Source: a virus (taxonomy: Duplodnaviria; Caudoviricetes). From it: 43,361 bases of DNA. Below the pieces are notes generated by a model. It made no database searches. It was not told where the DNA came from and saw only the letters and a list, made by a program, of their open reading frames with translations. Below, in pieces: positions 1,587-42,000 of this stretch; position 1 is the first letter of the stretch; every line of letters starts with the position of its first letter. Location: IMG/VR virus record IMGVR_UViG_3300030376_001139, positions 1 through 43,361 of that record; one strand, written 5' to 3'. The position numbers and the translations under genes are program-made.

Positions 1587-3011
1587 ATGGATAAAGTAAA
1601 AGCAGCCTGGCGTAAATTTGAATCATGGTTTGAAGCTATTGGACCTGAAAGAGGTTCTGCTTTACAATTTTTTCGTAAAGCTGATAAATGGGTGAATGAA
1701 AATATTCTACCTAATTTAGGTCCAGAAGAACAAAGTGAGTTCGAAAAAGAATTTTATAATTGGTGGAATACTGAAGTAGCTGAAACAGAAGCAGAAATGA
1801 TTGGCGATGAAGATGATGCACCTTTTGATGATACAGACCCTGAAACAGGTTTACCATCTAGAAGTATACCTAGCGATAGGGACCCAGATTTAACAAGTAA
1901 GTCTATACCTGGTAAAGAAGATTATGAAGGTTCTGGTTTACCTGGAGACGAAACATATGGTATTTCTAATAAAAACTTTAATAAATTTTCTCAAAAATAT
2001 GGGTACAATGTTGACCCAGATTTAATTAATGATGAAATACTTAGATTACAATCTGAAGAAGGTGTTGATAATTCTATAGAAATAAGTGAATTATTAGAGT
2101 ATCAAGCACTTATGCAAAGTGATGCTTTAGTTAGACCTGCATACGAAGATAGTGGTAAACCTATTCTTGATGCTAATGGTAATCAATATTTCTTACCGTT
2201 CCAATCACATTTCGATGGTATCAAAGTATCAGACATTATAGATAGTAATGCTTCAGCACAAGAAATAGAAGATTGGCAAAGCTATCTTATTAGACACAAT
2301 ATAGTACCTGATGATTACTTTATTGAAAGTCAAGGAGTAATGTCAGAAAAATTACGTGCATCTATTAAATACGTAATGAATTGGCTAGACCAAAACAGAC
2401 ACGTTGTAAAAGGTACAGATGTATACGCTAATGAAATAGAAGGACAAGATGCTATATTCTTTACATCTTATTCTTCTATGTATGAAGATGCAGATTATCA
2501 TAGAAACTTAATTGGCTATGCATTAAAAGAAATGGCAGGTGAACGTGTTCAACTTGATAAAGCTGAAGATGCAAAGATTGCAGAACAATTAGCTAAAGAA
2601 TACATACCTCCTCGTAAAGAAAACTTAGAAGAAATGGTAGAGGCATACTTTGAACAAAAATTAAATCGTAAACCTACTCAACAAGAACTAGACCAATGGT
2701 CTGGTACATTTGCTGAGAGTTATAATGCCGCTTATGCACAAGCTTTATCAAAAGCACAACAAATAGCTGACCATAATTGGATGGAAGAAAATCCTCAATA
2801 TTTTGAAATGAATTCACAAAGAGAACAATTTGCAAAAGATTATCCTGGAATAGGATATACAGATTTATCACAGTTTAGTAAAAGTAGTCCAGAAGATATT
2901 ATGCAAGACCAATTAGATGCAGAGTTTGGTGAGCAAGAAGATGATGTAGAACGTGGTAAAGCTATTAGACAAATGCAATCTGATTTAATTACGTATATGT
3001 TTGGAGGATAA
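1587..3011 (+). CDS. Acidic putative internal virion protein
   Basis: 474-aa ORF tightly packed in the structural operon (TAATG overlap with next gene); no family recognised. Confidence 0.55.
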   Translation: MDKVKAAWRKFESWFEAIGPERGSALQFFRKADKWVNENILPNLGPEEQSEFEKEFYNWWNTEVAETEAEMIGDEDDAPFDDTDPETGLPSRSIPSDRDPDLTSKSIPGKEDYEGSGLPGDETYGISNKNFNKFSQKYGYNVDPDLINDEILRLQSEEGVDNSIEISELLEYQALMQSDALVRPAYEDSGKPILDANGNQYFLPFQSHFDGIKVSDIIDSNASAQEIEDWQSYLIRHNIVPDDYFIESQGVMSEKLRASIKYVMNWLDQNRHVVKGTDVYANEIEGQDAIFFTSYSSMYEDADYHRNLIGYALKEMAGERVQLDKAEDAKIAEQLAKEYIPPRKENLEEMVEAYFEQKLNRKPTQQELDQWSGTFAESYNAAYAQALSKAQQIADHNWMEENPQYFEMNSQREQFAKDYPGIGYTDLSQFSKSSPEDIMQDQLDAEFGEQEDDVERGKAIRQMQSDLITYMFGG

Positions 3012-5572
3012 TGTTAGGTCTTACAAGTAAGATAGCTGATGATTCTTTAAATTTTATATATAGTGACAAGATAAATCCAGAAAGTCCTCTTTATAAAGAA
3101 TATATAGATTTACTTGAAATCCGAAGCAATTATGAAAAACGTCTTAATAGAATGGAAAGAAGTTGGAAAGCTGGAGATGGCACTTATATAAGTGAACAAC
3201 AATATAATGATATTATTAATCCACTTAAAGAAAAATTAAATTCAACTATCAATCGTATACAACAAATTACAGGAGATGCTGGAAGTAATCAAGCTATGAA
3301 AGTTATAGGTTATAGCTCTGCTAATGACCCTAAAGCTGAAGATTTCAAACCTAAACCTAAAGCAGATTTAGGTGATGCAAATATAGTATTAGCAGACTCT
3401 AGATGGGGACAACTTAGTAACTTAGCTGACCATACATTTACTTATGATGGTAGAGAATATAGAAGTGTTGAGCATGCATATCAAGCTAATAAATCTGGTA
3501 AGTTTCACGAACCTACTTATAGAGCATACTTTGATAGACCTGAAGCTAGAAAAATAAATACAGGACCTCCTGCAAATAAAAAAACAAATATAAAACTTAT
3601 GGAAGATTTATATAGACAAATGTTATCTGAAAATCCAGATATGGTCGACTTGTTAAAAGAAACTGAAGGATTTAATATTACACATCAATTAAAGAAAAAT
3701 GATATATGGACAACTGAAATGCCTAAGATATTAATAAAACTTAGAGATGAATTTGCAACTGGAACTCCTGAACTTAAAACTGTAGGTTGGATAGATGAAT
3801 TAGCTGATAATGAAATATTTGTTTTTGGAAGTAACAAAAAAGGAATACATGGTGCAAATGCTGCATTACAAGCTAAGAATCAATTTGGTGCAGAAATAGG
3901 TGTTGGTGAAGGATTAACTGGACAAACATATGCTTTACCTACAAAATCTACTCCTTATAAAAGTTTAACTGTAGATGAAGTTAGTAAAAATATAGATACG
4001 TTTTTAGAAGTTGCTAAAAATAATCCAGATAAAATTTTTAAAATGACACCTATAGGAACTAATCTAGCTGGATTTGAAGCACAAGAAATAGCAGATTTAT
4101 TATTTAGTAAAGATATACCTAGTAATGTACATGTACCTGAAAGTTTATTTAAATTAAAAGGTGGTACAGGTATTACACCTTCTCCAACTAAAATGATTGA
4201 AGTAGAAGGTGATTTTGGTGGACCCGGAGATGCTTACAGAGCAAGAACCGGTAGAACTGGTGGTACAGTAGGAGATATTACTATTGATTTTGTAACTCAA
4301 GCTACTTATGACAGAGGTGCAGGTAGCGGAGCAACTAAAGGAAGTACACAATCTGGTAAAAAACCTTATCAACCAATTGTTGTTAAAGATGATGGAACAA
4401 TGAAAGGTGGACAAATAGATGAACTAGCACAGATAATTGCAGACAATTTAACTACTGGTAAAACAGTTAACATTGCTGGACATGGTGCTTATGTATCTCC
4501 TGGGAGTAGAACTGGATTTAAACAACCAATGGACCAAGAAGTATTTAATAATGAACTAAATAAAGTATTTGATAAAGTTTTAGAAATTATAGGAGACCAA
4601 CCTATTACAGGTAAAGTTATAACTGGTGGACAATCTGGATACGATTTAGCTGGTTCACGTGCTGCAGCAAGTCATGGTATACCGAATGAAGCATATTACA
4701 GTAGTACAAAAGCAGAAGGCGGTGCATTATTTAGAAACCCAGATGGTCAAGATGTAGATAACCTTGAAGAATTTAGAAAAAGATTTAATAGATTTGGTCC
4801 TGGTGGTATGCCACCTATAGATACACCAGAGTTTGGAGAATGGTATGAAAAAGAAATAGAAGCTAAAAATTCAAAAGAAATAATAAATGATATTGCTAAA
4901 AATGTAGATGTAGAACCTAGTAGGTTAAGGAAAGTTATGGGAGAAGTACCAGGTTTTCTTGTCGTTCCTTTAGAAGCAGCAATAGAAGTAGGGTTAAGAT
5001 ATGGAAGAATGGCTAAAGCTCATCCTAATCTAGCTAAAAATGCTAGAAGATTTATTATGTACGAATTAGCTATGTTTGCTGGAGCTGTAGTTACTGGTCT
5101 TTCTAGTTATTATTCTGCTAAATATGATGCTACCAATGAATTTGGATATAGTAGTAAAGATTTATATTCATCATATAGCTATGACCGTACATCAGAAGAT
5201 AACGTAAGAAGAATGGAAGAATCTGTAGCTTATAATAAAGAAATTACAGAATTGTATGAGTTATATCCTGAATTAAAAGAATACAATGAAACTATGGCTC
5301 ATCAATTTGCAATGCAAGAAGCATCAGAAAATATGGATTTCTTTATTAAAAAAATGCCTACTTATTACATAGATGAAATTTTATTTGAATATGTTCCTGT
5401 ACTTAAAGAAGCTAGAGAAGAATATATAGACAAAAAGTTTTTTAGTGAAGGTGGTTGGAGAGCAGCACTTGCACAACCTCAGCTTGTAGAAAAAGGAATT
5501 GAATGGACAATTGATGCTATACTAGGAAACAAACGAGTCGAAAAGGAAGCTTGGTCTTATGACAACAGGTGA
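3011..5572 (+). CDS. Multidomain protein: NADAR + A1S_2505-type macro-like domain + permuted YpsA/SLOG domain, with a C-terminal hydrophobic helix
   Basis: NADAR: LSNL...YDGREYRSVEHAYQANK...DIW...LIKLRDEF. A1S_2505-type: IFVFGSN.KG.HG..AA..A...FGA..G.GEG..GQTYALPTK...TPIG..LAGF. SLOG: YRART...VNIAG...ITGGQSGYD.AG. Confidence 0.75.
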   Translation: MLGLTSKIADDSLNFIYSDKINPESPLYKEYIDLLEIRSNYEKRLNRMERSWKAGDGTYISEQQYNDIINPLKEKLNSTINRIQQITGDAGSNQAMKVIGYSSANDPKAEDFKPKPKADLGDANIVLADSRWGQLSNLADHTFTYDGREYRSVEHAYQANKSGKFHEPTYRAYFDRPEARKINTGPPANKKTNIKLMEDLYRQMLSENPDMVDLLKETEGFNITHQLKKNDIWTTEMPKILIKLRDEFATGTPELKTVGWIDELADNEIFVFGSNKKGIHGANAALQAKNQFGAEIGVGEGLTGQTYALPTKSTPYKSLTVDEVSKNIDTFLEVAKNNPDKIFKMTPIGTNLAGFEAQEIADLLFSKDIPSNVHVPESLFKLKGGTGITPSPTKMIEVEGDFGGPGDAYRARTGRTGGTVGDITIDFVTQATYDRGAGSGATKGSTQSGKKPYQPIVVKDDGTMKGGQIDELAQIIADNLTTGKTVNIAGHGAYVSPGSRTGFKQPMDQEVFNNELNKVFDKVLEIIGDQPITGKVITGGQSGYDLAGSRAAASHGIPNEAYYSSTKAEGGALFRNPDGQDVDNLEEFRKRFNRFGPGGMPPIDTPEFGEWYEKEIEAKNSKEIINDIAKNVDVEPSRLRKVMGEVPGFLVVPLEAAIEVGLRYGRMAKAHPNLAKNARRFIMYELAMFAGAVVTGLSSYYSAKYDATNEFGYSSKDLYSSYSYDRTSEDNVRRMEESVAYNKEITELYELYPELKEYNETMAHQFAMQEASENMDFFIKKMPTYYIDEILFEYVPVLKEAREEYIDKKFFSEGGWRAALAQPQLVEKGIEWTIDAILGNKRVEKEAWSYDNR

Positions 5573-6885: not shown

Positions 6886-7839
6886 ATGGCTGATTTTTTA
6901 GAAGGTGAAGTAAGTAGACAAGTTAAAATACAAAAGAATGGTCAAGTTAAATTTGCTCAATCTGGTAAACGTGAAGGTGAAGATAAATCTGAACTAGAAC
7001 TTATGGAAGAACAAGGGTGGGTACAAACATCTGCATATGACGAAGGTGTAGATATGGCCTCAGCTTATGCTGCATTTTTACCTGAAGATATAGTAGGTAA
7101 GTATGCTGAATCTTGGGCTAAAAGTGGAGATGCTAACATTGCTTTAGCAGCAACTAGAGAAACTAAAGAATGGAAAGATGAATTTGCATACCTACAACGT
7201 AAAGATGGTTCATTAGTTGTAGATGAACTTACTGCTTTATCTACAAAAGCTAGTTATAAAGAAACATTATCTGAAGTAGGTGTTACTAATTTTGAAGACT
7301 TTGAACCATTCTTTAATGACATGATAGGTGGTGGTGAAGAAGAAGACCCAGTATCTGCAGTTGAATTTCAAGATAGAGTAGACATTGTATACGCTGGTGT
7401 TAAAGATAAAATACCTGAAGTAGAAAAATTATTTAGAGATAGATATGGTTTAGATGTTGATAGTGGAAGTATTTTTGCTGCATTAGTTAATCCAACGATT
7501 GAAGATAAGATGTTAGCTGGTGATATATCAACACTTAACTTACAAGCACAAGCTAAATCAAAAGGTTTTAGTTCAACATTTAATAGATTTGAACAGTTAA
7601 GAAAACTTGGAATGACTGAAGAACAAGCTAAATCATTGTATGGTACTGCTGGTAGTGTAATGTCTAGTGCTAGAGCTGCAGGTAGAGATTTAAATATAGG
7701 AACATTAGAAGGTTCAGTAACAGGTGATATGACAGCTACACAAAAGCTAGACAGAATACAAGGAAATATTAGTTCTCAAATGGGATATACATTAGGTGCT
7801 GCAAAAAAAGATGGCAAAGTTACTGGACTAATTGAATAA
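6886..7839 (+). CDS. Putative internal virion protein
   Basis: 317-aa ORF with upstream AGAGGA; last gene before the head-assembly promoter. Confidence 0.5.
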   Translation: MADFLEGEVSRQVKIQKNGQVKFAQSGKREGEDKSELELMEEQGWVQTSAYDEGVDMASAYAAFLPEDIVGKYAESWAKSGDANIALAATRETKEWKDEFAYLQRKDGSLVVDELTALSTKASYKETLSEVGVTNFEDFEPFFNDMIGGGEEEDPVSAVEFQDRVDIVYAGVKDKIPEVEKLFRDRYGLDVDSGSIFAALVNPTIEDKMLAGDISTLNLQAQAKSKGFSSTFNRFEQLRKLGMTEEQAKSLYGTAGSVMSSARAAGRDLNIGTLEGSVTGDMTATQKLDRIQGNISSQMGYTLGAAKKDGKVTGLIE

Positions 7840-7841
7840 CC

Positions 7842-7850
7842 TGCTATAAT
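7842..7850 (+). promoter_or_regulatory. Extended -10 promoter TGCTATAAT
   Basis: Perfect TGnTATAAT just after a stop codon; the same motif recurs at other operon boundaries. Confidence 0.75.
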
Positions 7851-7863
7851 ATAGTTTATGCGT

Positions 7864-8031
7864 TGCGTGGTCCGCTTAATAGACCTGCACTCAGCTTTCG
7901 AAGCCTACGTTGAAAGCTCGTATTAAAACCGTAGAGTAATGGACTTATAACTAAAGCTACCAGGGGATAAGTCAAGTGTTTAAGGTAGCACCCCGGCAAG
8001 ATGCCTATGGTCTTGTCTGATAGGTTAACAC
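7864..8031 (+). ncRNA. Candidate multi-pseudoknot structured RNA / 5' leader of the scaffold-capsid operon
   Basis: GC-richer non-coding stretch with five stems and five loop-to-downstream pairings found by hand; G-U pairs favour the + strand. Confidence 0.65.
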
Positions 8032-8047
8032 ATAGTGGAGGTACAAA

Positions 8048-8515
8048 ATGGAAGAATTTGATGCACCGCAAGAACATGGTGTAAAACAAATGAGAGAAAC
8101 AATTGATAGAAAAGATGATGCTATCAAAAAACTTGAGGCAGAATTAGCTTCTTTTAAAGAAAAAGAAATAGATAATGTCTTTGGTAAATTAGGATTATCT
8201 ACTGACAAGGGTTTCGGCAAAGCGTTAAAACAAGTGTATGATGGACCGATTGATACAGAGTCTATCTCACAGTTTGCTAAAGAAGAGTATGGTTATGAAT
8301 CAACTGGTCAAGTACAGGAAGTAACACAACCCGTATCTGAACCAATAGTTCAAGACGATGCTAGGTCTAGAGTAGCTGCACTTGATGCAAATTCAGTTTC
8401 AGACGTACCTTTAAGTACCAATGAAGAATTAGCCAAAGCTTTACAAGGTGCTTCAGTAAAAGATTCACTTAGAGCTAGGTTAGCAATCATGGAACAAGAC
8501 AAACAGAATAAGTAA
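8048..8515 (+). CDS. Capsid scaffolding protein (putative)
   Basis: 155 aa, acidic, N-terminal coiled coil, GGAGG RBS, immediately upstream of the capsid gene. Confidence 0.6.
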   Translation: MEEFDAPQEHGVKQMRETIDRKDDAIKKLEAELASFKEKEIDNVFGKLGLSTDKGFGKALKQVYDGPIDTESISQFAKEEYGYESTGQVQEVTQPVSEPIVQDDARSRVAALDANSVSDVPLSTNEELAKALQGASVKDSLRARLAIMEQDKQNK

Positions 8516-8549
8516 AAGAATTTAATACGACAACATACGGAGGTATATC

Positions 8550-9689
8550 ATGGCAGCAATAACGCTGACAGGTGACACACTTTACTCCCAAAAGATTAAC
8601 AACTTTACGGGGGAGCTATTCCGTGTAGGTGGTCAAAGAACTCCTTTCTTATCTGCAACAGGTGGCTTGAACGGAGGTAAGGTTTTACAATCTACCTTCT
8701 GGCAAATACAAGCTGCTGACTCACACACAGTATCTTCTGAGCCTACTAAGGCAAAAGAAGGTGACGCACCAACTGAATATCTTGGAAGAGATAGAGTTGC
8801 GTACACAGGTGTGACGCAGATATTCCATAAAGGTGTCAAGATGACTTACACAGCTATGGCAACATTTCAAAATCAGAATCCATTTTCTGTTAATGCAGCT
8901 GGCGGTCCAATAAATACCGTAGCTTCATCTGATGGTGATGGAACAACTACTGCAGGAACCTTATTAGGACTTGCTGGTGGTAACCCAATAGTAGATGAAT
9001 TTGCAGAGCAAATGTCTTTAGCTCTTGAAAAAGTAGCTAGAGAAGTAGAATGGTTTGCATTTAACGGTGGTTACGCAGACGGTGCACACGCTACACCTGG
9101 TTCAGGAACCAGAGAAATGCGTGGTATTTCTGAGTACTGCTCACTAAATGCTAACGCTGATAACACAGTTGCTCCTACATATGTAGGCGGAAACGTTTAT
9201 TGGAACGGTACTACTGGTAACGGTGCTACAGGTACAAACCAAGTACTTTCTTGGGATGCTATCGCTAACTCTCTTAAGAGATTGTATGATGCACATGCTC
9301 CAATGATTCAGCCAGTACTTTGTATAAGTCCACAAATGCTTTTGGACCTTAACAAAGAACTACTAGCTGGTACTGTTGGAATTACAGGTGCTATCCTACC
9401 TAGAGATAGAAACCTTGCTGGTATCGATATTGACGTAATTGTTACTCCATTCGGACAGATTGGAATGATGGTTATTGACCCTAATATCTTACCTGACAAC
9501 ACTGCATTTATTTTAGACTTCGCTTTTATACAGCCAGTCTTTACAAATATCCCTGGATACGGAACAGTATTCGTAAGAGATATTGACCAAAATGCAGATG
9601 CAAAAGTCGCTAAAGGTATCTACATGGAAATGGGGTACGACTTCGGTCCTCCTTCATACCATTTGAAGATAGCTAAAGTAAAAGACTAA
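8550..9689 (+). CDS. Major capsid protein (DUF5309/SU10-like, HK97 fold)
   Basis: TPFLS, TQIF.K, EFAEQMSLALEKVAREVEWFAFNG, TREMRGI and TPFG motifs; strong GGAGG RBS; followed by a terminator. Confidence 0.85.
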   Translation: MAAITLTGDTLYSQKINNFTGELFRVGGQRTPFLSATGGLNGGKVLQSTFWQIQAADSHTVSSEPTKAKEGDAPTEYLGRDRVAYTGVTQIFHKGVKMTYTAMATFQNQNPFSVNAAGGPINTVASSDGDGTTTAGTLLGLAGGNPIVDEFAEQMSLALEKVAREVEWFAFNGGYADGAHATPGSGTREMRGISEYCSLNANADNTVAPTYVGGNVYWNGTTGNGATGTNQVLSWDAIANSLKRLYDAHAPMIQPVLCISPQMLLDLNKELLAGTVGITGAILPRDRNLAGIDIDVIVTPFGQIGMMVIDPNILPDNTAFILDFAFIQPVFTNIPGYGTVFVRDIDQNADAKVAKGIYMEMGYDFGPPSYHLKIAKVKD

Positions 9690-9703: not shown

Positions 9704-9738
9704 TGGGGGGAATCCACCTTCCTCCCATTTCTTCTGTT
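9704..9738 (+). terminator. Intrinsic terminator after the capsid gene
   Basis: TGGGGGGAA / TTCCTCCCA stem followed by TTTCTTCTGTT. Confidence 0.6.
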
Positions 9739-16121: not shown

Positions 16122-17264
16122 ATGACCTTAGATGTTGAATATCGTAATGAGTTAGTTACTTTTTTACCTAAAATACCTAAGATATCAATTATTGGTAAAG
16201 GAACTGCAGGTTTATTAACAGCTGTACATTTTCTTAGATTCTATGATTTATATAATTGTAAGTTAGAAATTATATATGACCCTGATACCAATCATTTATT
16301 AGATATAGGTGAAAGTGTTAATGCTGCTGTACCTGCTCAGTTGTGGGGTATAGGTATTGATATGAGTTATGCTGATAAATTAGGCTTTACTCCTAAGTTT
16401 GGTATTAAATATAATGACTTTGGTAATAAAAATTTTATACATCCATTCCCTACTAATGTAACATCATTACATATTGATAGTCATTTGTTTACTAAAGAGT
16501 TATTAAAGATACTAGAACAAAGAGGTGTAGAAATAACTGAAAAGAAAGTTACAAATTACAATGACATAGATGCTGATTATGTTATTGATTGCAGTGGCTT
16601 TCCTAAAGATAAAGAAAATATAACTTATACTCCGTATATACCTGTTAATGCTGCAGTTATAACTTCTGAAAATACTATTAGTAATGATTATTATACTCAT
16701 CATACAGCTATGCCTTATGGTTGGAAGTGGCAGATACCTTTGTTAGATAGAATTTCTTATGGTCATTTGTATAACAAAGACATAGATACACCAGATATAC
16801 AAGGAAAAGTAATAGAGTTTGATAGTTATTACAGAGAAGAAATGTTTGATGGAAGAGTATTGCACAATGGATTAAATGGTTTCTTTTTAGAACCTATGGA
16901 AGGTACAGCTTTAACTGTCACAGAAAATATTAATAGACATCTTATGGACCATATAATATATAAATTACCTGTACAAGAAGTTAATGAAAATATTGTTAAA
17001 CATATTAAAGAAGTAGAAACAACTGTAGTAATGCATTACCTTAAAGGTAGTAAATACAATACTCCATTCTGGAACTTAGCTCAAGATATAGCAGTATCTA
17101 ACTTTAAAACAATTGGTGATGAATTAAAGAATGCAATTATGTCACACTATATTGATGATTGTAAATGTAATGATAAACAAGATGCTTACAACTATGGTTT
17201 ATGGGATTACAATAGTATAAGATATAATGTAGAAGGATTAGAAATAACCCTATCTGATATTTAA
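16122..17264 (+). CDS. Tryptophan-halogenase-like flavoprotein (PrnA family)
   Basis: GxGxAG (GKGTAG), IGES, PKFGI (catalytic-Lys position), IDCSGF, GWKWQIP (WxWxIP) and FLEPME motifs. Confidence 0.85.
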   Translation: MTLDVEYRNELVTFLPKIPKISIIGKGTAGLLTAVHFLRFYDLYNCKLEIIYDPDTNHLLDIGESVNAAVPAQLWGIGIDMSYADKLGFTPKFGIKYNDFGNKNFIHPFPTNVTSLHIDSHLFTKELLKILEQRGVEITEKKVTNYNDIDADYVIDCSGFPKDKENITYTPYIPVNAAVITSENTISNDYYTHHTAMPYGWKWQIPLLDRISYGHLYNKDIDTPDIQGKVIEFDSYYREEMFDGRVLHNGLNGFFLEPMEGTALTVTENINRHLMDHIIYKLPVQEVNENIVKHIKEVETTVVMHYLKGSKYNTPFWNLAQDIAVSNFKTIGDELKNAIMSHYIDDCKCNDKQDAYNYGLWDYNSIRYNVEGLEITLSDI

Positions 17265-24443: not shown

Positions 24444-24534
24444 CTATATGTCCCCATACTTTTTCACAGTAATCACAATAAACTTGGTCAGTTATTGGAC
24501 ATACTATTGATAATTTTATACCACAACATTTCAT
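24430..24534 (-). CDS. Possible 34-aa Cys-rich peptide (absent from ORF track)
   Basis: MKCCGIKLSIVCPITDQVYCDYCEKVWGHIDEFI; overlaps the end of the transglycosylase gene. Confidence 0.35.
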   Translation of the reverse strand: MKCCGIKLSIVCPITDQVYCDYCEKVWGHIDEFI

Positions 24535-24940
24535 TGTCATACCCTTTCCAACAGTGTTTACTACTATTCCAATGATGCCAACCGTCATTGTATACTAACC
24601 AAGAAGCCACTGCTGTAGATACTTCTGGATTAAATCTATTGTTTATTATACCAAGCTTAGGTGTTAACCAAGCCCAAGTATCATCATTGAATTGCCAGAG
24701 TCCAACATCTTGCGTCCCATTTGTATTATTACCAACTGCACGTGTGCGGCCACGGCTTTCACAGTAAATAATATTAAGTGATTGCAAGATGTCTTCCTCC
24801 TTAAAATACCTGGATACTATGTCTGTGTGTCTAGATACAACTACTATTTTATTTTGTACTTGTAAACATTCTTTGTATTCAGGTAAGTTGTTAGGTGTAA
24901 GTAACATAGGAAACAAACACCCAACAATTATTTCTATCAT
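24488..24940 (-). CDS. Lytic transglycosylase (SLT/Rpf-like lysozyme fold)
   Basis: CES catalytic Glu, GLWQFNDDTW, GWHHW; hydrophobic N-terminus. Confidence 0.8.
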   Translation of the reverse strand: MIEIIVGCLFPMLLTPNNLPEYKECLQVQNKIVVVSRHTDIVSRYFKEEDILQSLNIIYCESRGRTRAVGNNTNGTQDVGLWQFNDDTWAWLTPKLGIINNRFNPEVSTAVASWLVYNDGWHHWNSSKHCWKGYDNEMLWYKIINSMSNN

Positions 24941-27846: not shown

Positions 27847-27852
27847 GTGTTC

Positions 27853-27861
27853 ATTATAACA
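27853..27861 (-). promoter_or_regulatory. Extended -10 promoter TGTTATAAT (leaderless configuration)
   Basis: Perfect motif on the - strand, 6 nt before ATG 27846. Confidence 0.7.
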
Positions 27862-27899
27862 GTTTTATTTAGTATGCAATTAACTAAGTAATTAATTCC

Positions 27900-28375
27900 A
27901 AACTAAATAACATTCATTACGAATATATGTACTAAGCACCTACATACTGGCTCAATCCAATCCATTCTATACCTACGTAAAGAATTGGTGTCTAGTATCA
28001 GGTAAGTAGCACCGATAATGCTAGTGGTTACCTTCAATCTATTGGACGTTTATTCATAAGACGCAATAATAGTTATATAGTTCTTGATTGACTATGGCAT
28101 AATCTCCTTTTCATTTCCTCGATATCGGTTCCTTACTGACACGAACTACTCACCTCGTACGTGGAACGATAGCCACGAACTCGTCTCGTAGTTCTTCGTC
28201 AACAGGAACCTCTCTACTGGGTATGCGTAGCAGTGTTCACTATGGGTTGATTGTTGACTCTAAGATGTAAACCTGTTGCAAGCTCTCCTTGCACTCTATT
28301 CTGCTACTCACATAGCTTTGATAAGCGGAAAGGAACACCTACTGTCTTGCGACATTACTATGTGTACCGTTTATC
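27900..28375. ncRNA. Candidate large structured non-coding element
   Basis: ~480 nt without a credible ORF, GC-richer, many stems; strand unresolved. Confidence 0.45.
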
Positions 28376-28378
28376 TTA

Positions 28379-34233: not shown

Positions 34234-34498
34234 TTATCGGATTGTCTTTCCGACTTCCTTTGTCGGAAGGAAAGACAATACGATAATTGTAAGTTAGTTA
34301 TTAGCTTTATGTTATCACTATGAATATGTCTACGCATAATGGAACTTAAAACAACTACATACTCTTTCATTTTAATCTATTATCCTTCTTTCCGACTTCT
34401 CCTGTCGGAAGGAAAGAAGGATTATAGATTACAAGAGTATATAGTGTTTAAGTTACCAAGATATGCTTGACATATCGGGTATGACTACCATATGTCAA
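34234..34498. repeat. Twin long inverted repeats with near-identical 31-nt tips
   Basis: TCTTTCCGACTTCnnnTGTCGGAAGGAAAGA at 34245-34275 and 34387-34417, capping hairpins 34234-34286 and 34324-34475. Confidence 0.8.
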
Positions 34499-34763
34499 CC
34501 GAAGGTTGTTCTTTATAGTACGTAAGGTCTAAAAAATATACTGGTAATCTTTACAGTATGTTGCTATTAAGTCAGTAAGGAGTTGCCTTTTTGAGCATGA
34601 GCGGGCATATACAGTATTGATTCTGATTAAACCTTTTCTTAATGTCCTTGGGTACTGCCTTTGTCTTTCTAGTTTACACTCTCACGTGTCAGCAGCTTTT
34701 GATGTCCCGGTCACCGCTTTACCTGTAACAAATTACTTGTGTTTAATGTTTGTAATAAATCAA

Positions 34764-34772
34764 ACTATAGCA
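34764..34772 (-). promoter_or_regulatory. Possible leftward extended -10 promoter TGCTATAGT
   Basis: One mismatch to consensus; abuts a rightward TATAAT at 34773-34778. Confidence 0.4.
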
Positions 34773-34814
34773 TATAATTCTCACTATACAAACATCTACA
34801 GAAAGTTAGTGAAT

Positions 34815-36728
34815 ATGTCCACAAATCTCATCTGCATAGCTGAAGGTTGCAGAAAGAAATTGAAGGGTAGACAAAAGAAATTCTGCTCAGGGACGTGCCA
34901 GAAGCGTCAATTTGCTCGTGACAAGCGACATAATGATAAAGTGGACCCGAAGCCCATCAATAAAGAGTATAATGCTGATACAGGGGATTACGCCTCTGTA
35001 CGTAGAGGGCAGTATTACCGAGCTTTCGTAAGCGAAGGTATAGCTGAAACAGTTGCAACTGGTGGGATATCAGTAGCTGAAGCAGCTTCCCTCCTTGGTT
35101 GTACTTCAGCTACGGTGTCCCGCATGCTCGCTGCCTACAAGATAGATAGTAGAAACGAAGTAGCAGCAGAAGATTGGGAACTATCAGAAGATGCAAGAGA
35201 CTCATTAGAAAATTTTTCCGACTTCCGACACAAATACTTTAGAACAGAACTAGGAAAACATTATGACACCGCAGATTTTCATAGTAACTGGATTAATAAC
35301 ATTATTGATAGTATAGAAAACGGTAAAGAGTTATTGATACTGTCACCCCCAAGACATGGAAAGACTGAACTACTAATACACTTTGCTGTATATCAGATAT
35401 GTAAGAACCCCAATACAAGAATTATGTGGGTTGGTGGTAACGAAGACATTGCAAAGAACGCATTATCTGCTGTACTTGATGTATTAGATACCAATGAAGA
35501 GTTAAGAGAAGACTTTTGTCCACCTGGACAATCTTTTAAACCTGATAACCGTTCAGGAAAGAACTGGTCACAGAATCAATTTACTGTAGGTACTAGAACA
35601 GTACCAGGTATTAAATCACCTACTATGGTTGCTGTAGGTAAAGGTGGAAAAATTCTTTCAAGAGACTGTGATATTATTATTGCTGATGACATTGAGGACC
35701 ATCAAACTACAATGCAACCTGGTGCAAGAGAATCTACAAGACAATGGTGGACAACAACTCTTTCATCAAGAAAAGAGGAACATACTGCTGTAGTTGTAAT
35801 TGGTTCAAGACAGCACCCTGATGATTTATATAATCACTTACTTGAATCAGATAACTTTACAAGCATAGTTGAAACAGCACATCAAATAGATTGTCCAATA
35901 CCAGAACATCTTATAGAAGAACATATTGATTGTATGTTATGGCCAGGTAAAAGAACTTTTAAATGGTTGCAATCTAGATTGAATTCTGCTGAATCAACAG
36001 GTGGTAGGCAAACTTTCGAAATGGTTTATTACAATCAAGCATATGTAGAAGGTACGCAAATATTTACTATGAACATGATTGACCAATGTATGCGACCTGA
36101 TTTAGTACTAGGACAAGTATATAAAAACTTACATCTTGTAGCTGGACTTGACCCTGCATCAAGTGGTTATCAAGCCAGTGTGTTATGGGGTATAGATACA
36201 TACAGAGGTGAGTTGTATTTAGTTGACCTAGAAAATAAACGTGGTGGTGGTATTAGAGCTGCACTAGACCAAATGTCTGATTGGTTACATAGATATGATT
36301 GTAGACATTGGATAGTAGAAGAGAATGGATTTCAATCTGCTATTAGGCAAGATACAGGAATAAAAGAATTTACATTACGTTCTGGTATACAAGTACAAGG
36401 ACACATGACAGGTAAAAACAAACACGACCCACTCTATGGTGTTGGAGCTATGGCTGATTTGTTTGAAAATAGGAAAATTCATCTACCTACTGGTGATGGA
36501 GAATCTAATGCAAAAGTACAGAAATATAGACAACAATTGTTATACTTTGATGGTAAGCCTGTTTCTAAGCGAAACAAGGAAAAAACTGATATAGTTATGG
36601 CTAGTTGGTTTCCTATGAAAGTTTTTAGGCGGCTACAAAAAGAACACGCTGCTGATATAGGTTTAGATTATAACCCTAGTTATGGAGAGTACAAAATGAC
36701 GGAGGCAAACGAAGCACCATGGGCATAG
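34815..36728 (+). CDS. terL: Terminase large subunit with N-terminal Zn-finger and HTH
   Basis: PPRHGKT Walker A, IIIADD Walker B, GSRQHPDD, GLDPA nuclease Asp, D.VMA; ATG 34815 preferred over the TTG start. Confidence 0.92.
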   Translation: MSTNLICIAEGCRKKLKGRQKKFCSGTCQKRQFARDKRHNDKVDPKPINKEYNADTGDYASVRRGQYYRAFVSEGIAETVATGGISVAEAASLLGCTSATVSRMLAAYKIDSRNEVAAEDWELSEDARDSLENFSDFRHKYFRTELGKHYDTADFHSNWINNIIDSIENGKELLILSPPRHGKTELLIHFAVYQICKNPNTRIMWVGGNEDIAKNALSAVLDVLDTNEELREDFCPPGQSFKPDNRSGKNWSQNQFTVGTRTVPGIKSPTMVAVGKGGKILSRDCDIIIADDIEDHQTTMQPGARESTRQWWTTTLSSRKEEHTAVVVIGSRQHPDDLYNHLLESDNFTSIVETAHQIDCPIPEHLIEEHIDCMLWPGKRTFKWLQSRLNSAESTGGRQTFEMVYYNQAYVEGTQIFTMNMIDQCMRPDLVLGQVYKNLHLVAGLDPASSGYQASVLWGIDTYRGELYLVDLENKRGGGIRAALDQMSDWLHRYDCRHWIVEENGFQSAIRQDTGIKEFTLRSGIQVQGHMTGKNKHDPLYGVGAMADLFENRKIHLPTGDGESNAKVQKYRQQLLYFDGKPVSKRNKEKTDIVMASWFPMKVFRRLQKEHAADIGLDYNPSYGEYKMTEANEAPWA

Positions 36729-38491
36729 AGAATTTAGATATTAAAAACTATCAAGAGATAGTTAAGAATGCTGCTGAACTTACATCAGGTAAGTTAGTAC
36801 AAGAAAGACAAGTACAGAAAGCTAGAATCAAAGCAATTCTTAATGGTGGTGCTGATGGTATTAAAGCTTTACTAGGTAACACAATGGAAACAAGTGATGC
36901 TGATTTATTACCAGCTCCGAACATGTTACAGTCTGGTATTGACAGACTTGCACAAAAGATTTCAGGAATACCTCAAGTTAGAGTAGATGTACCTAATGAT
37001 AAAGATTCAACTAGAAGTAAAATGCGTGCAGAGAAATTAGAACGTATTGTTACTAACTATGATGATAAGCAAGGTATGCTTGACCAATTACAACAAGCTG
37101 CTAGATGGCTACCTGGTTACGGTTTTGCTGCTTGGGTTATAACTACAAAAGTAGATACTAACGGATATCTATATCCTAGTGCTGAACTAAGAGACCCTTA
37201 TGATACATTCCCAGGTAACTTTGGTCCTGACCAACAACCTAGAGAAATGGCAGTACTAAGACGTGTACCTAGATATAAACTAGCTCAAATCTATCCTGAG
37301 TTTGCAAAAGAGATTTTAAAACAAGATGAAGATAAAGGTGAATCACAAACTGATACTGCATCACCATTTATGTCTTATGAAAATAACAGAGAACAAGGTT
37401 GGGAAGATAATACATACTCAGGTGTAAGAATTATTGAATACTATGACATGGGTGGTACTTATGTAGTATTTCCTGAAAAGAATATGATTCTTGATTTTAT
37501 ACCTAACGTGTTATCTACACCACCATTTGTATTTATGAAGAGAGTTTCCTTTGACCAACTTAAAGGTCAATACGACCACGTAATAGGACTAATGGCAATG
37601 ATGGCAAAGATTAACATTATGTCTGCAATTGCGATGGAAGATTCTGTGTTTACAGAAACTAACATATCAGGAGAGATAGAATCCGGACAATACAGAAAAG
37701 GCAGATTTGCGGTAAACTATCTCGCTCCTGGTACACAAGTTTCTAAACCAATGAACAATATGCCATATCAATTGTTCCAACAAATAGATAGGTTGGAAAG
37801 ACAATTACGTATGGTAGGTGGTTATCCAGTTACTGATGACTCACAGTCACCTAACTCTTTTGTTACTGGTGCTGGATTATCAGAATTGAATAGCACAATG
37901 TCATTAATGATATCTGAATATAGAGATGTCATTAAAGGTGCATTAGTACGTATGGACCAAAAAAGATTAGAACTAGATGTAGTGTTATCTTACTCACAAG
38001 GTATAACTAAAAAACCTATGTCTGGTTATCTTGCTGGCTCTGCATTTTCTGAAAACTATTTTCCACTTGCTGATATTGGTGGGGATTTTAAAACTAGACG
38101 TATCTATGGTGTTATGGCTGGTTTTGATGAACCACAAAAGATTGTAACTGGTTTGCAATTATTACAAGCAGGTGTTATAGACGTAGAGACATTACAAGAT
38201 AACATTGATGGTTTAGAAAATATTGCAAAAGTACAAGAACGTATTAGAAAAAATAAAGCAGAGAGTGTTTTATTTGATTCAATACTTGCTAGGTCAGCAC
38301 AAGGTGACCCTGCAGCTACAATGGCTGCAATAGCTATTTACGAGTATCCAAATGCTATAACAGATATAATGAAACAATTCTATACTCCACAAGAGCCACA
38401 GATGTCACCTGAAGAAGAAATGATGATACAGCAACAAATGATGATGGGTGGTGGGGATGTTCCAGGAATGGCACAAGCTTTTGGAGTATAA
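36719..38491 (+). CDS. Portal protein
   Basis: 590 aa, directly after terL, PNML...ID..A N-terminal motif, Q/M-rich tail typical of podoviral portals. Confidence 0.78.
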   Translation: MGIENLDIKNYQEIVKNAAELTSGKLVQERQVQKARIKAILNGGADGIKALLGNTMETSDADLLPAPNMLQSGIDRLAQKISGIPQVRVDVPNDKDSTRSKMRAEKLERIVTNYDDKQGMLDQLQQAARWLPGYGFAAWVITTKVDTNGYLYPSAELRDPYDTFPGNFGPDQQPREMAVLRRVPRYKLAQIYPEFAKEILKQDEDKGESQTDTASPFMSYENNREQGWEDNTYSGVRIIEYYDMGGTYVVFPEKNMILDFIPNVLSTPPFVFMKRVSFDQLKGQYDHVIGLMAMMAKINIMSAIAMEDSVFTETNISGEIESGQYRKGRFAVNYLAPGTQVSKPMNNMPYQLFQQIDRLERQLRMVGGYPVTDDSQSPNSFVTGAGLSELNSTMSLMISEYRDVIKGALVRMDQKRLELDVVLSYSQGITKKPMSGYLAGSAFSENYFPLADIGGDFKTRRIYGVMAGFDEPQKIVTGLQLLQAGVIDVETLQDNIDGLENIAKVQERIRKNKAESVLFDSILARSAQGDPAATMAAIAIYEYPNAITDIMKQFYTPQEPQMSPEEEMMIQQQMMMGGGDVPGMAQAFGV

Positions 38492-38660: not shown

Positions 38661-39024
38661 AGGTGGATACAGACAACCAGCTAAACCCGCAGCTGTAGCT
38701 ACACCACAAGGTGGGCAAAGAACAGATGGTGGACCTGGTAGTAGTAAGCAACCGTTAAGAAGATTACCTGATGCTGACTATGGTCAAAATAAAGCATTTG
38801 TTGAACAACAACAAGCTGCACCATTACCTAAACAAGAAAGACTTAATCCTAATATATTTGCTCCTACTGAGTATCCTGGTCAACCTATTACTGAAGGATT
38901 ACCTATAGGACCTGGTAGTGGACCTGCTGTAATGCCTGATAATATAGATACTATATTACAAGCAATGCATCAGATGAATCCTTCACCATTAGTCGCAGAT
39001 ATGATTAATAACAGGGTTAATTAA
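38644..39024 (+). CDS. Pro/Gly-rich post-portal virion protein
   Basis: RGGYRQP..PA...G..RTDGGPG...YGQ...P+T.GLP.GPG.G motifs; AAGGA RBS. Confidence 0.6.
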   Translation: MAKNRRGGYRQPAKPAAVATPQGGQRTDGGPGSSKQPLRRLPDADYGQNKAFVEQQQAAPLPKQERLNPNIFAPTEYPGQPITEGLPIGPGSGPAVMPDNIDTILQAMHQMNPSPLVADMINNRVN

Positions 39025-42000
39025 TGGGTTTTTATTTACATGACAAAAATGAATTTGAGGATTTACTAAAAGCTAATAGTAGATTTGATTTAAAAGTTAA
39101 TCAGATGTCAGATATGTTAACTACTGCTGACCCTATGCAGATTTTAGAAAACTATAGTAAGTATCAACAAGAAATGCCTGAGATAGGTTCACCAGATGCT
39201 ATGTCATTAGCACAACTTAATGTACCTACAAACTATGAATCTTCAAGAGCTATTGCACAAGCATCAGCTAACAAAAGAATTTACGATGAAGCTAGATTAT
39301 GGACTGAACTACAAGCTGAGTTTGGTGATGATTCTATAGCTGACAATATGAAAATGACTGCTGCTGATGTATGGACATTAGGATTTGCACCAGGTGGAGC
39401 TAAACCTTTTCAAACACAAGCAGGTGTATGGGCATTTGCTGGATTAGATTGGTTATTTCAAACTTTAGGACCCGGTGGTTCAGGTAAATGGTCTGTAGGT
39501 TCACAAGCAATTAATGCAATGTTGCCTGGACAACCTATGGCTGTAGGACGTTCTGTAGCATATTTAAGAGATTTAAGAGAATACGATAAATTATTAAAGA
39601 ATGGATATTCAAAAGTTCAAGCACAAAGAAAACTATCTATTGATTTAAGTGGTACAAGAATACAAGGATTAGGTGAAAACTTAGGTCCTGTAGAAGAAAT
39701 TAAACAACAAATTGATATGATTGCTGAAGCTCACAAGATGGGTGGAGAACCTGTAATAACTTCTATGTATAGAGCTGTACTAGAAGGTAAGCCTATTAAC
39801 TTTGATAGAAGTAGATGGTTTATAACAGAAAGTGTTAAAGCAGAAAAAAGTCCTCATTATATTAAACTTACACAAGATTATGGTATGTCACCTGATGACG
39901 CTAGAGATTTTATATATAAAAACATTGGTACTCCATTAAGAGGTAGCTTTGACCCTAAGACTGGTAAAACTAATTATGCTTTTGATGGTGAAGGTGGTAA
40001 CCTATACTACACATCATTCGATAATCCAAACAAAATTAACTTTTATGCAGGTAGACATAGGCAAAAATACTTTTATGCTGGTATAGACAGACAAGATTAC
40101 TTTAGACCTGAATGGGCAAATAAAGATATTTTAATGGAATACTCACCAGGTAAAGTACAATCAGCTGAATTCTTTGAACCAGGTACTACTGCATTTAAAA
40201 ATATGTCAGGTTTAATAGATGCAGCACATCAAATTGTTCCAGAGATATTTTTAGGTAAAGGTATTAAAGGTGTTAGAAATGTTTCTAGAGGTTTAAGAAG
40301 TGTTAACGGTGCATATGAAATGGTTAATCAAGGTAAACTTGTTAAACGAGGACTTGTTAAAAACTATATAGTTACACCTAGAAAATTAGCTGACAATATA
40401 TTAGAAGAAGTAGGACCAAGAATTGATGGTGCTGTTGGTACTGGTAAAATTGATGACTTAGTAGATAGTGGATATCAATTACTTACTAATAAAAATATTA
40501 CAGCTGATACTGCTAACCAAAGAAAATGGCTTAAAAAGATGAGAAAAGAAGAAACATTATTTGGTTATGTACCAAGGTTCTTTCAATTAACACAAGATGA
40601 AATATTAAATCAACCAATTAACATAAGATTCTTTAAAGCTGTAGCTGAAGAAGATAACTTAATGATTATGGGTAGTAACAACATAATTAAAGATATGCCT
40701 GCACAAGTACAAAAAGCTTTAGTAGAAGCAGATGATTGGAAAGATGTACAAAATATATTTAGTCAAATGATTGATACAGGATATAAAATACAAAACAAGT
40801 ATGGAGAAATGGTTCCTTATACTTTACCAGGAAAAACATTACCTAAAACTGGTTCTATGGTGCTTAATAGAATGCTACAAAAAACTGGTATAGATAGGTC
40901 ATATAGAACATTTGGAAGCTTTGCTGGTGAAAACATACGTAAAGTAAAAGATACTGTTATGCCGTTTATGCCGTTTAGACGTAATCCAAGTAAGTTAACT
41001 AGAGTAGAAAACACAGATGCTGTGGTAATTGACAAAGCAGAAGATATTGCTAATAAGATATCTGAATTAGCTAAAACAGAAAACTCTCCTATGATTTATA
41101 AGTTTCAAGAAATGAGACAACGTAAACTACCTGAGTTTGAAAAGTATCTTGGATTCTCATCTAATTACAATTCAACATACAATCCTTATTACAGAAAGTT
41201 ATTGAGTGTTGTACCTGAAATGGGTATACCATTGAATAACTTAGATTCAGGATATAGACAATTAATGGGTCATTTGCAAGTTAATCAATATGATGATATT
41301 GAAGCTAATAAAATATTAAAAGAATTTTTAGATATAGACCCTAATCAAAAATTCAAATACAGAGACTTTGCACACCAACAAGCTTTAAGAGATGTCAAAA
41401 TGATTAAATCAAGAGGTGGTAACTGGGAATATGTTGCATCAGTTGCTGATGAAATGTTTGAAGGTATGCAAAAATCTAAGATATATGCTACTGATAAGAA
41501 TGGTCAAATGCTACCAAGCATTGGTACAAACTACAAAGGACAAGAAATAAATCATGTTGGTAATGCTGTAGATGAATTTGGTAACGTAACAACTAATGTA
41601 ACAGCTTCTATGTTGTCAGAAATGCAAGATAACATAGCACCTCTATTAGATTATAGATTAATTGAACGTGCATTAGGTCCTTTGTTTAAAGCTTACCCAG
41701 AAGGTCAATATGTTCGTACATCATTTTTAGGTGATGTAAAAGCATATGGTAAATATAAATCACAAAATAAATGGTGGGGTAAAACTGGAGATGATTTACC
41801 TAATCCATTTGATGATGGTATTTTAAATGTTAAAAGATTAGAAGATAACTTTTTAAGTAACACACTGCAGTTTTATACAAGGAATATATTCAAACCTCTT
41901 GTATTAATGAGATTTGCTTTCTTCACACGTGTATTTATGGAAGAACAAGCACGTATGGCTATGAAAGGTATATCTAATGTTTATAGTAAACCTTATGAAT

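What the first reader, a model, noticed from the sequence alone, without database searches (positions are those of the whole stretch)
7864..8031. Densely pseudoknotted ~170-nt RNA filling the leader of the scaffold-capsid operon
Stems seen: P1 TGCG-GGTC 7864-72 / GACC-TGCA 7882-89; P2 AGCTTTC 7893-99 / GAAAGCT 7912-18; P3 GACTTAT 7942-48 / ATAAGTC 7967-73; P4 GTGTT 7976-80 / AACAC 8027-31; P5 GGCAAGA 7995-8001 / TCTTGTC 8011-17. Every hairpin loop has a downstream complement: TTAATA 7876-81 / TATTAA 7921-26; CTACG 7905-09 / CGTAG 7930-34; GCTACC 7956-61 / GGTAGC 7984-89; GGGG 7963-66 / CCCC 7991-94; GCCTAT 8003-08 / ATAGGT 8020-25. The element starts just after TGCTATAAT and ends just before the GGAGG RBS. 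I cannot map it to HDV, twister, hammerhead or a riboswitch I know. Inference: an uncharacterised compact RNA (regulator of head-gene translation, ribozyme, nuclease-resistant RNA or assembly RNA).
Basis: partly seen in the sequence, partly recalled or inferred. Interest (0 to 1): 0.82.

Follow-up and report, generated by a model that had tools for sequence, protein, structure and literature searches.

The report
Four-pseudoknot leader of phage head mRNA
The 180 bases in front of this marine phage's scaffold and capsid genes carry the pairing pattern of four RNA pseudoknots in a row, kept by matched mutations in relatives and absent from Rfam; a shorter version lies before the scaffold gene of cultured Streptomyces phages, and the element likely shields the message from decay and likely damps scaffold translation.

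Summary
All ten complementarities exist, but homologues support only six. Adding three missed helices gives four serial H-type pseudoknots (7860-8037): 98.2% of cells paired, 25 of 50 pairs compensated (59 homologues). All 145 distinct leaders read before this marine scaffold family fall into five types with 3-4 pseudoknots, built on a repeated module with invariant C/G flanks. No Rfam match. Metatranscriptome contigs cover the leader and run into the scaffold gene. The nearest cultured phages, Streptomyces Beephvirinae podoviruses, have a homologous scaffold. Their two-pseudoknot leader starts at a tRNA 3' end, and its last knot pairs with the Shine-Dalgarno (59 of 61 leaders). Best reading (0.5): a 5' decay shield plus a brake on scaffold translation, setting the capsid:scaffold ratio. 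Main rival (0.25): feedback by free scaffold protein, as in P22. Ribozyme, riboswitch and packaging RNA are unlikely. Function is untested.

The parts
6886..7839 (+). Upstream 317-aa gene (PHROG 8424, unknown function; probably a virion protein by position); it stops 3 nt before the promoter
7842..7850 (+). Extended -10 promoter-like box (TGn-TATAAT); predicted transcription start about 7856-7858
   Evidence: a -10-like hexamer lies 7-10 nt before the first stem in most leaders of all five types
7860..7889 (+). Pseudoknot M1 (5' cap knot): S1 7860-62/7873-75; S2 7864-66 plus 7869-72 with 7882-85 plus 7887-89; variable A/U loop 7876-81
   Evidence: S1 100%, S2 97% paired; same knot with other sequences in types D and E
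7892..7936 (+). Pseudoknot M2, first copy of the repeated module: S1 7893-99/7912-18; S2 7905-09/7930-34; flanking C7892/G7920 (C or U; G invariant) and invariant C7904/G7936, each G one base beyond the helix; invariant GUA 7920-22
7942..7989 (+). Pseudoknot M3 (type-A specific): S1 7942-48/7967-73; S2 7956-61/7984-89; invariant 7973-78
7990..8037 (+). Pseudoknot M4, second copy of the module: S0 7990-92/8023-25; S1 7995-8001/8011-17; S2 8005-09/8031-35; invariant C7994/G8019 and C8004/G8037 (G8037 is the first G of the Shine-Dalgarno)
8037..8042 (+). Shine-Dalgarno of the scaffold gene
   Evidence: invariant in 59 of 59
8048..8515 (+). Head scaffolding protein, 155 aa: predicted long N-terminal helix starting with K-x-x-R and C-terminal helix pair; homologous to Beephvirinae proteins annotated as scaffolding protein
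   Evidence: low-confidence model, pLDDT 63; HHalign 95.7%, E 8.6e-9
8539..8543 (+). Separate GGAGG ribosome site of the capsid gene, in an A/U-rich spacer
8550..9689 (+). Major capsid protein (PHROG 1328; Pfam PF17236 SU10_MCP)
9704..9737 (+). Terminator-like hairpin plus U-run, closing a unit of about 1.87 kb (leader, scaffold, capsid)

Best explanation
The stretch is the conserved 5' leader of the scaffold-capsid message and carries the covarying pairing pattern of four pseudoknots in series; it likely works as a decay shield at the front and likely as a brake on scaffold translation at the back. Shown: the pairings, their conservation, one copy per genome, the position between a -10-like box and the scaffold ribosome site, and RNA contigs across it. 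Inferred step 1 (shield): M1 begins 0-3 bases after the predicted start, and the knots leave no unpaired linker longer than 11 nt. This would deny RppH, RNase J and RNase E the single-stranded 5' end and A/U-rich sites they need, and stabilise the two-gene message. In the soil relatives the first knot starts at a tRNA 3' end, where processing would leave a decay-prone monophosphate. Inferred step 2 (brake): the last knot always ends 9-20 nt before the start codon, within the expected reach of the 30S subunit. It touches the first G of the Shine-Dalgarno here and pairs with it outright in the soil family. It would therefore lower scaffold initiation while the capsid gene keeps its own open ribosome site, giving more capsid than scaffold from one stable mRNA. 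In this reading the brake needs no protein.
For: Covariation in four independent alignments: type A 98.2% paired, D 95.1%, E 94.4%, soil 84.4%; 0-1 of 500 shuffles reached the count of compensated pairs in the marine sets and 2 of 500 in the soil set. All 145 distinct marine leaders fall in five structured types. First stem 7-10 nt after the -10 box in most leaders. Last module ends 9-20 nt before ATG in 141 of 145 (4 not parsed). Soil family: 59 of 61 leaders have a terminal knot whose 3' strand is the Shine-Dalgarno, against 19 of 610 shuffles; 43 of the 46 with a detected tRNA have it ending 105-130 nt before the start. Knot number (2-4) and stem letters vary while position is fixed, as expected of a physical barrier. 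RppH and RNase E need single-stranded 5' ends, which explains 5' structure stabilisers (PMC3997798, passages). Pseudoknot xrRNAs block bacterial RNase J1 (10.1101/262683, passages). Terminator after the capsid gene, none in the leader. RNA contigs bridge leader and scaffold, two of them starting at 7862 in one run.
Against: No direct data on half-life, translation or folding. Invariant unpaired or bulged bases (C/G flanks, GUA, 7973-78) and an invariant M2 in type E look more like a protein- or ligand-binding surface than a passive barrier. In marine types B-E the last knot ends several bases before the Shine-Dalgarno, so a protein-free brake is weaker there. One 5' hairpin would suffice as a shield. 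The host, and so its RNase set, is not established (no WhiB in 40 of 40 genomes). The type-A covariance model does not detect type D or soil leaders, so their kinship rests on synteny, scaffold homology and the shared module.
Confidence: 0.5

Rival explanations
1. Autogenous operator: free scaffold protein binds the repeated module (two sites per leader), stabilises the last knot over or beside the ribosome site, and shuts off its own synthesis when not consumed by head assembly, as P22 scaffold does.
For: [quoted passage not shown] Eight candidate RNA motifs lie upstream of GP20 genes (PMC10690425 section 10). T4 gp32 binds a leader pseudoknot (PMC3014915). The module has invariant flanks. 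An early K-x-x-R match occurs in 106 of 110 marine and 55 of 61 soil scaffolds; in 4 type-D rows it lies at another place. Leader type follows the scaffold tree (4 changes, the minimum) but not the capsid tree (15). The module is shared with soil phages whose capsid protein gives no tblastn hit to this one.
Against: The upstream gene's tree fits leader type equally well (4 changes), so the congruence is explained by linkage. There is no T4-like unstructured tract for cooperative binding. K-x-x-R may be structural and had no background control. Binding could not be tested. Unchecked scan notes report tandem knots before capsid genes in other phage families.
Confidence: 0.25
2. Translation enhancer: the knots are a landing pad for ribosomal protein S1 or the 30S subunit, or keep the ribosome site from mispairing, and so raise head-protein output.
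For: S1 binds pseudoknots (recalled, no call). In marine types B-E the Shine-Dalgarno lies outside the last knot. Nested folding without knots buries the Shine-Dalgarno in this window, so the knots may keep it free.
Against: In 59 of 61 soil leaders the homologous knot pairs with the Shine-Dalgarno itself. The scaffold gene already has a perfect GGAGG.
Confidence: 0.1
3. Metabolite- or ion-sensing riboswitch: the module's bulged C-G ends form a pocket, and ligand binding locks the last knot over the ribosome site.
For: Invariant bases flank variable stems. A Shine-Dalgarno-pairing H-type knot in the soil family has the layout of small translational riboswitches (recalled).
Against: The controlled genes are virion genes. 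No Rfam aptamer matches. The only alternative anti-SD helix in type A (7871-76/8034-39) is 87% paired with no compensatory change. Few invariant bases are shared across types.
Confidence: 0.07
4. Self-cleaving ribozyme, or a released assembly or packaging RNA in the manner of phi29 pRNA.
For: Size about 180 nt, dense structure, adjacent to head genes.
Against: The knots are serial, with variable number and sequence and no shared catalytic core. No ribozyme or pRNA hit in Rfam. No terminator in the leader. Contigs run from leader into scaffold. The phage has an ordinary terminase large subunit and portal.
Confidence: 0.05

Closest known systems
GP20-a (RF02991), GP20-b (RF03003) and six further GP20-upstream candidates (PMC10690425 section 10, read in full)
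   Same: Conserved structured RNA directly upstream of a phage gene of the scaffold kind. The nearest named Atlas clusters for this protein are DUF4355 and PF06810 Phage_scaffold (leads only; that PF06810 is the former Phage_GP20 is recalled).
   Different: No cmscan match. The scaffold here has no Pfam hit. This is 2-4 tandem pseudoknots of one module.
P22 gene 8 (scaffolding protein) translational autoregulation
   Same: Scaffold gene directly before the coat gene; a plausible need to limit scaffold.
   Different: Binding is not shown here. I saw one passage and a reference title only, so the P22 operator structure was not compared.
T4/T2/RB69 gene 32 leader pseudoknot (PMC3014915, passages)
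   Same: H-type pseudoknot in a phage 5' leader; that message is unusually stable and translationally controlled.
   Different: Gene 32 has one knot 67 nt upstream plus an unstructured A/U tract and encodes an ssDNA-binding protein. Here four knots reach the ribosome site, with no linker over 11 nt.
Dianthovirus and flavivirus xrRNAs (10.1101/262683, passages)
   Same: An apical loop pairs with a downstream segment. M4 has the stem, internal loop, stem, loop-pseudoknot layout. Those RNAs block RNase J1 in vitro.
   Different: They come from eukaryotic RNA-virus 3' UTRs and make subgenomic RNAs. The defining ring around the 5' end cannot be judged here, and no sequence kinship was found (no Rfam hit).

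Membership tests
Any Rfam 15 family | cmscan score at or above the gathering threshold | tested here: not met
   0 hits in the window; only E>1.5 noise in 7700-8200; 0 in 20 loci of types A-E; only tRNAs in 12 soil loci
GP20-a / GP20-b | Match to RF02991 or RF03003 | tested here: not met
GP20-a / GP20-b | Downstream gene belongs to the GP20 (PF06810) family | tested here: inconclusive
   no Pfam hit; Atlas feature score 0.89 to a PF06810 cluster, a lead only
P22-type scaffold autoregulatory operator | Regulated gene encodes the head scaffolding protein | tested here: met
   position, predicted helical layout, HHalign to an annotated Beephvirinae scaffold
P22-type scaffold autoregulatory operator | Free scaffold binds the leader and represses its own translation | not testable with these tools
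   indirect tree test not specific
T4 gene 32 operator | H-type pseudoknot in the 5' leader | tested here: met
T4 gene 32 operator | Unstructured A+U-rich tract from the knot across the ribosome site | tested here: not met
   longest unpaired linker is 11 nt and the last knot abuts the Shine-Dalgarno
T4 gene 32 operator | Downstream gene encodes an ssDNA-binding protein | tested here: not met
xrRNA | Apical loop pairs with a downstream segment | tested here: met
   all four knots
xrRNA | [quoted passage not shown] | not testable with these tools
   needs a 3D structure and an RNase J or Xrn1 assay
HDV-like / twister / pistol ribozymes | Nested multi-pseudoknot core with conserved catalytic bases (definition recalled) | tested here: not met
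   knots are serial, interchangeable between types, no Rfam hit
Translational riboswitch | Conserved alternative helix that switches the Shine-Dalgarno | tested here: inconclusive
   marine alternative helix shows no compensation; the soil terminal knot does pair with the Shine-Dalgarno
Translational riboswitch | Ligand-dependent conformational change | not testable with these tools
   needs in-line probing
phi29 pRNA | Free-standing transcript with its own 3' end | tested here: not met
   no terminator in the leader; contigs bridge leader and scaffold (weak, contigs only)

The most novel reading that the evidence does not exclude
The C/G-flanked pseudoknot is a previously undescribed RNA module that the scaffolding proteins of a whole lineage of actinobacterial-type podophages recognise. 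Free scaffold locks the last copy onto the ribosome site while upstream copies act as bacterial xrRNAs. That would be a pseudoknot sensor of procapsid assembly conserved from ocean phages to cultured Streptomyces phages, and a prokaryotic exonuclease-blocking fold that can be tested in laboratory strains.
Probability: 0.2. Interest if true: 0.82.

Novelty: new variant of a known kind. Interest (0 to 1): 0.58.

Why it matters
How phages make far more capsid than scaffold from one message, and how scaffold synthesis is limited, is known from few cases (P22). Candidate RNAs before scaffold genes (the GP20 motifs) have no mechanism. A 2010 review states that T4 gene 32 may be the only viral pseudoknot used in translational autoregulation (PMC3014915). 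This is a strongly covarying modular pseudoknot family in more than 200 distinct leaders. It has cultured carriers on harmless laboratory hosts (Manuel on Streptomyces lividans, Immanuel3 on S. griseus), so the shield, brake and scaffold-feedback models can be told apart at the bench. A portable 45-nt stabiliser or translation-tuning part for actinobacteria would be a practical by-product.

Tried and rejected
Nested MFE folding does not show the element (z 0.25).

An anti-SD switch helix was first counted one base out of register (disregard) and then correctly: 87% paired, no compensation, rejected as a conserved switch. The C-G pairs beyond a bulge never vary on both sides, so pair versus triple versus contact is open.

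A DNA-operator reading is rejected: the spacers vary in length and G-U pairs are tolerated.

Pattern scan of cellular genomes: 120 loci returned, about half the collection scanned. Three passed the stem-1 filter; one is a phage contig inside a MAG (L630) and two lack the second knot, so no cellular copy was found. Loose patterns returned many chance loci.

Host: WhiB absent in 1 of 1 and 39 of 39 genomes; the terminase homologue list named no host. The Mycobacterium phage Mendokysei leader gave no model hit. blastn of the leader against 50,697 phage records gave one 45-nt chance hit.

RNA data are contigs only. Lack of cover on the upstream gene is not evidence, because relatives diverge there. 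The two contigs starting at 7862 come from one run, and the run that continues upstream (X23) is of unrecorded kind. Run X2 did not cover the leader. Depth cannot rank leader against genes.

The tree test could not single out scaffold. A likeness of the first bases to a NAD-binding riboswitch class and to type III antitoxin repeats was recalled and dropped: no Rfam hit, different topology, no toxin gene alongside.

Literature searches found no description of this element. The Fremin 2023 alignment and position files (mmc1-5) and the Weinberg 2017 supplement could not be read, so a fragment may be listed there; mmc6-9 gave no hit. No protein-complex job was run.

Full report
CONTEXT. The window is a 43,361-nt virus record, 34.6% GC. 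It encodes a terminase large subunit (34617-36728), a portal (36719-38491), very large putative virion proteins, and a major capsid protein at 8550-9689 (PHROG 1328, Pfam SU10_MCP). The finding fills the gap between a 317-aa gene ending at 7839 and a 155-aa gene starting at 8048. That gene is a scaffold: it lies before the capsid gene, its low-confidence model has a long N-terminal helix and a C-terminal helix pair, and its alignment matches a Streptomyces phage protein annotated as scaffolding protein in several records (HHalign 95.7%, E 8.6e-9). A terminator-like hairpin follows the capsid gene and none lies in the leader. The nearest cultured phages by terminase (29 of 66 records, including the top hits) and portal (29 of 31) are Streptomyces Beephvirinae at 22-27% identity. 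By capsid they are Mycobacterium, Propionibacterium and Bifidobacterium phages (16 of 18 records). An actinobacterial host is therefore likely but not shown; WhiB is absent from 40 of 40 genomes searched.

OBSERVATION. All ten complementarities are present as stated. Nested folding is no better than shuffles (z 0.25), but three strong H-type pseudoknots in 185 nt were reached by 0 of 2000 shuffles. I aligned the window with 58 representatives (under 97.5% identical, mean 79%) of 91 distinct full-length homologues. A corrected model of four serial pseudoknots is 98.2% paired, with 25 of 50 pairs changed on both sides; 0 of 500 column shuffles reach this, and slid controls give 31-41%. The shuffle ignores relatedness, so the weight rests on the slid control and on the repeat of the result in other types.

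ANATOMY. M1 (7860-7889) has a 3-bp first stem and a long, bulged second stem. M2 (7892-7936) and M4 (7990-8037) are copies of one module: C, stem 1, short loop, C, 5-bp stem 2, 1-2 nt, stem 1', one base, G, A/U-rich linker, stem 2', one base, G. Three of the four C/G flanks are invariant in 59 of 59 and the fourth is C or U opposite an invariant G; whether they pair is not shown. M3 (7942-7989) is specific to this type. The last G of M4 is the first G of the Shine-Dalgarno. One hundred of 178 bases are paired and no unpaired linker exceeds 11 nt.

FAMILY IN MARINE PHAGES. Scans with the capsid, scaffold and leader motifs (the protein scans return only the best 80, of up to 399 relatives) gave 512 loci and 145 distinct leaders. 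All fall into five types: A 94, B 5, C 3, D 24, E 19. Types B, D and E have three knots; A and C have four. Type D (21 of 24 aligned; two mis-trimmed and one near-duplicate left out) is 95.1% paired with 20 of 40 pairs compensated. Type E (18 of 19) is 94.4% paired with 8 of 36 compensated and an invariant M2. A descriptor of the module finds two or more copies in 93 of 94 A, 5 of 5 B, 3 of 3 C and 19 of 19 E leaders, but only one in 17 of 24 D and none in 7; 2 of 435 shuffles give one and none give two. Over the whole window it gives 6 hits, 2 in the leader and 4 weaker scattered ones. A covariance model of type A finds one copy in the window and in each of 11 of 20 genomes; 8 of the 9 misses carry type D or E leaders. 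It reaches B and C (E 1e-13 to 3e-8), E weakly, and D and the soil leaders not at all. In most leaders the first stem lies 7-10 nt after a -10-like hexamer, and the last module ends 9-20 nt before ATG (141 of 145).

EXTENSION TO CULTURED PHAGES. In Immanuel3, Manuel and FlowerPower the matching slot holds an array of 19-22 tRNA genes and then about 115 nt before the scaffold start. Among 88 loci from named records and a viral scan, 85 gave a scaffold start and 61 distinct leaders. They carry two pseudoknots. The first starts at the tRNA 3' end (43 of the 46 with a detected tRNA). The second has a loop that pairs with the Shine-Dalgarno (59 of 61, against 19 of 610 shuffles). On 38 of the 61 chosen as alignable, 84.4% of cells pair and 24 of 31 pairs are compensated. 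The marine descriptor, written before I saw these leaders, hits 13 of 61, all at the ribosome site, against 0 of 305 shuffles; a relaxed post hoc version hits 30 of 61 against 10 of 305. The two groups share synteny and scaffold homology, but their capsid proteins give no tblastn hit to each other. Kinship of the leaders is therefore inferred, not shown by alignment.

EXPRESSION. Eight runs were laid, seven on record as RNA, all kept as contigs. Six of the seven RNA runs cover part of the leader, and contigs bridge it into the scaffold gene. One contig matches this phage with 1 difference in 1076 nt (7920-8995), and two in one run begin at 7862. This fits a 5' leader transcribed from the 7842-7850 promoter, but contigs cannot fix ends, strand or level.

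MECHANISM. The fixed features are positional: a knot at the very 5' end (after a promoter or a tRNA end) and a knot at the scaffold ribosome site. The variable features are knot number and stem sequence. RppH and RNase E need single-stranded 5' ends (PMC3997798, passages), and pseudoknot xrRNAs stop RNase J1 (10.1101/262683, passages), which supports a shield. The terminal knot on or beside the Shine-Dalgarno, with a separate open site for the capsid gene, supports a brake that biases output to capsid; this ratio wording was prompted by an earlier scan note. I put shield plus passive brake at 0.5. Scaffold feedback is the main rival at 0.25, given P22 (one passage; reference title), GP20-upstream motifs (PMC10690425 section 10), T4 gene 32 (PMC3014915, passages), the invariant module bases and a conserved K-x-x-R. 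On 110 loci, leader type needs 4 changes on the scaffold tree, 15 on the capsid tree and 4 on the upstream-gene tree (FastTree). This argues against capsid protein as a type-specific ligand but gives no specific support for scaffold. The alternative anti-SD helix shows no compensation.

NOVELTY. No Rfam 15 match for any type. Ten searches of the open-access library (listings seen) gave no description. I read passages of PMC10690425, PMC5737381 and PMC11536984 (Abafar: podovirus, 15 tRNAs, no mention of scaffold). The alignment supplements of the two motif surveys could not be read, so a fragment may be catalogued there. The scan's own notes describe four- and three-pseudoknot scaffold leaders in marine phages, probably this family, and tandem knots before capsid genes elsewhere. 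My four-knot model predates that look-up, and those notes are not independent support. A word search found no note on the Streptomyces link. Verdict: a real, new tandem-pseudoknot variant of the phage head-gene leader RNA; function inferred; interest 0.58.

Noticed in passing
L901:16040-17988, L902:16464-18329, L903:15986-18057: Beephvirinae place an array of 19-22 tRNA genes where the marine phages have only a promoter; the scaffold leader begins at the last tRNA's 3' end, so tRNA processing would create the head-gene mRNA.
   Followed up: partly
window 8550-9689 and 110 related loci: The capsid gene is mosaic: leader type, scaffold and upstream gene stay together (4 changes) while capsid genes are exchanged (15 changes) between lineages whose scaffolds are only about 30% identical.
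   Followed up: partly
window 34245-34271 and 34382-34422: Two related long hairpins (z -2.1 and -3.4) in the divergent intergenic region before the terminase; possibly an operator, packaging or origin signal.
   Followed up: partly
window 27847-28378: A 530-nt, relatively GC-rich gap among minus-strand genes, with no Rfam hit; it could hold another structured RNA or small genes.
   Followed up: partly
window 39024-43361 and 85-1584: An open frame of 1446 aa runs off the end and probably continues into the first ORF (circularly permuted assembly), giving a very large virion protein like the roughly 1640-aa Beephvirinae gene at the same position.
   Followed up: no
window 3011-5572: The 853-aa putative virion protein carries inserted domains (PHROG 2072, PHROG 1017, weak NADAR) that shorter counterparts in relatives appear to lack.
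   Followed up: no
L947 leader: One soil leader has an extra stem of about 60 nt inserted in the terminal knot's linker, and L949 has a hairpin between the two knots, so the module tolerates insertions.
   Followed up: no
L630: A type-A phage contig is binned in an Acidiferrobacteraceae MAG; probably misbinned, and not used as host evidence.
   Followed up: partly
window 16122-17264 and 24488-24940: A tryptophan-halogenase-like gene (PF04820) and a lytic transglycosylase with a weak PF06737 hit.
   Followed up: no
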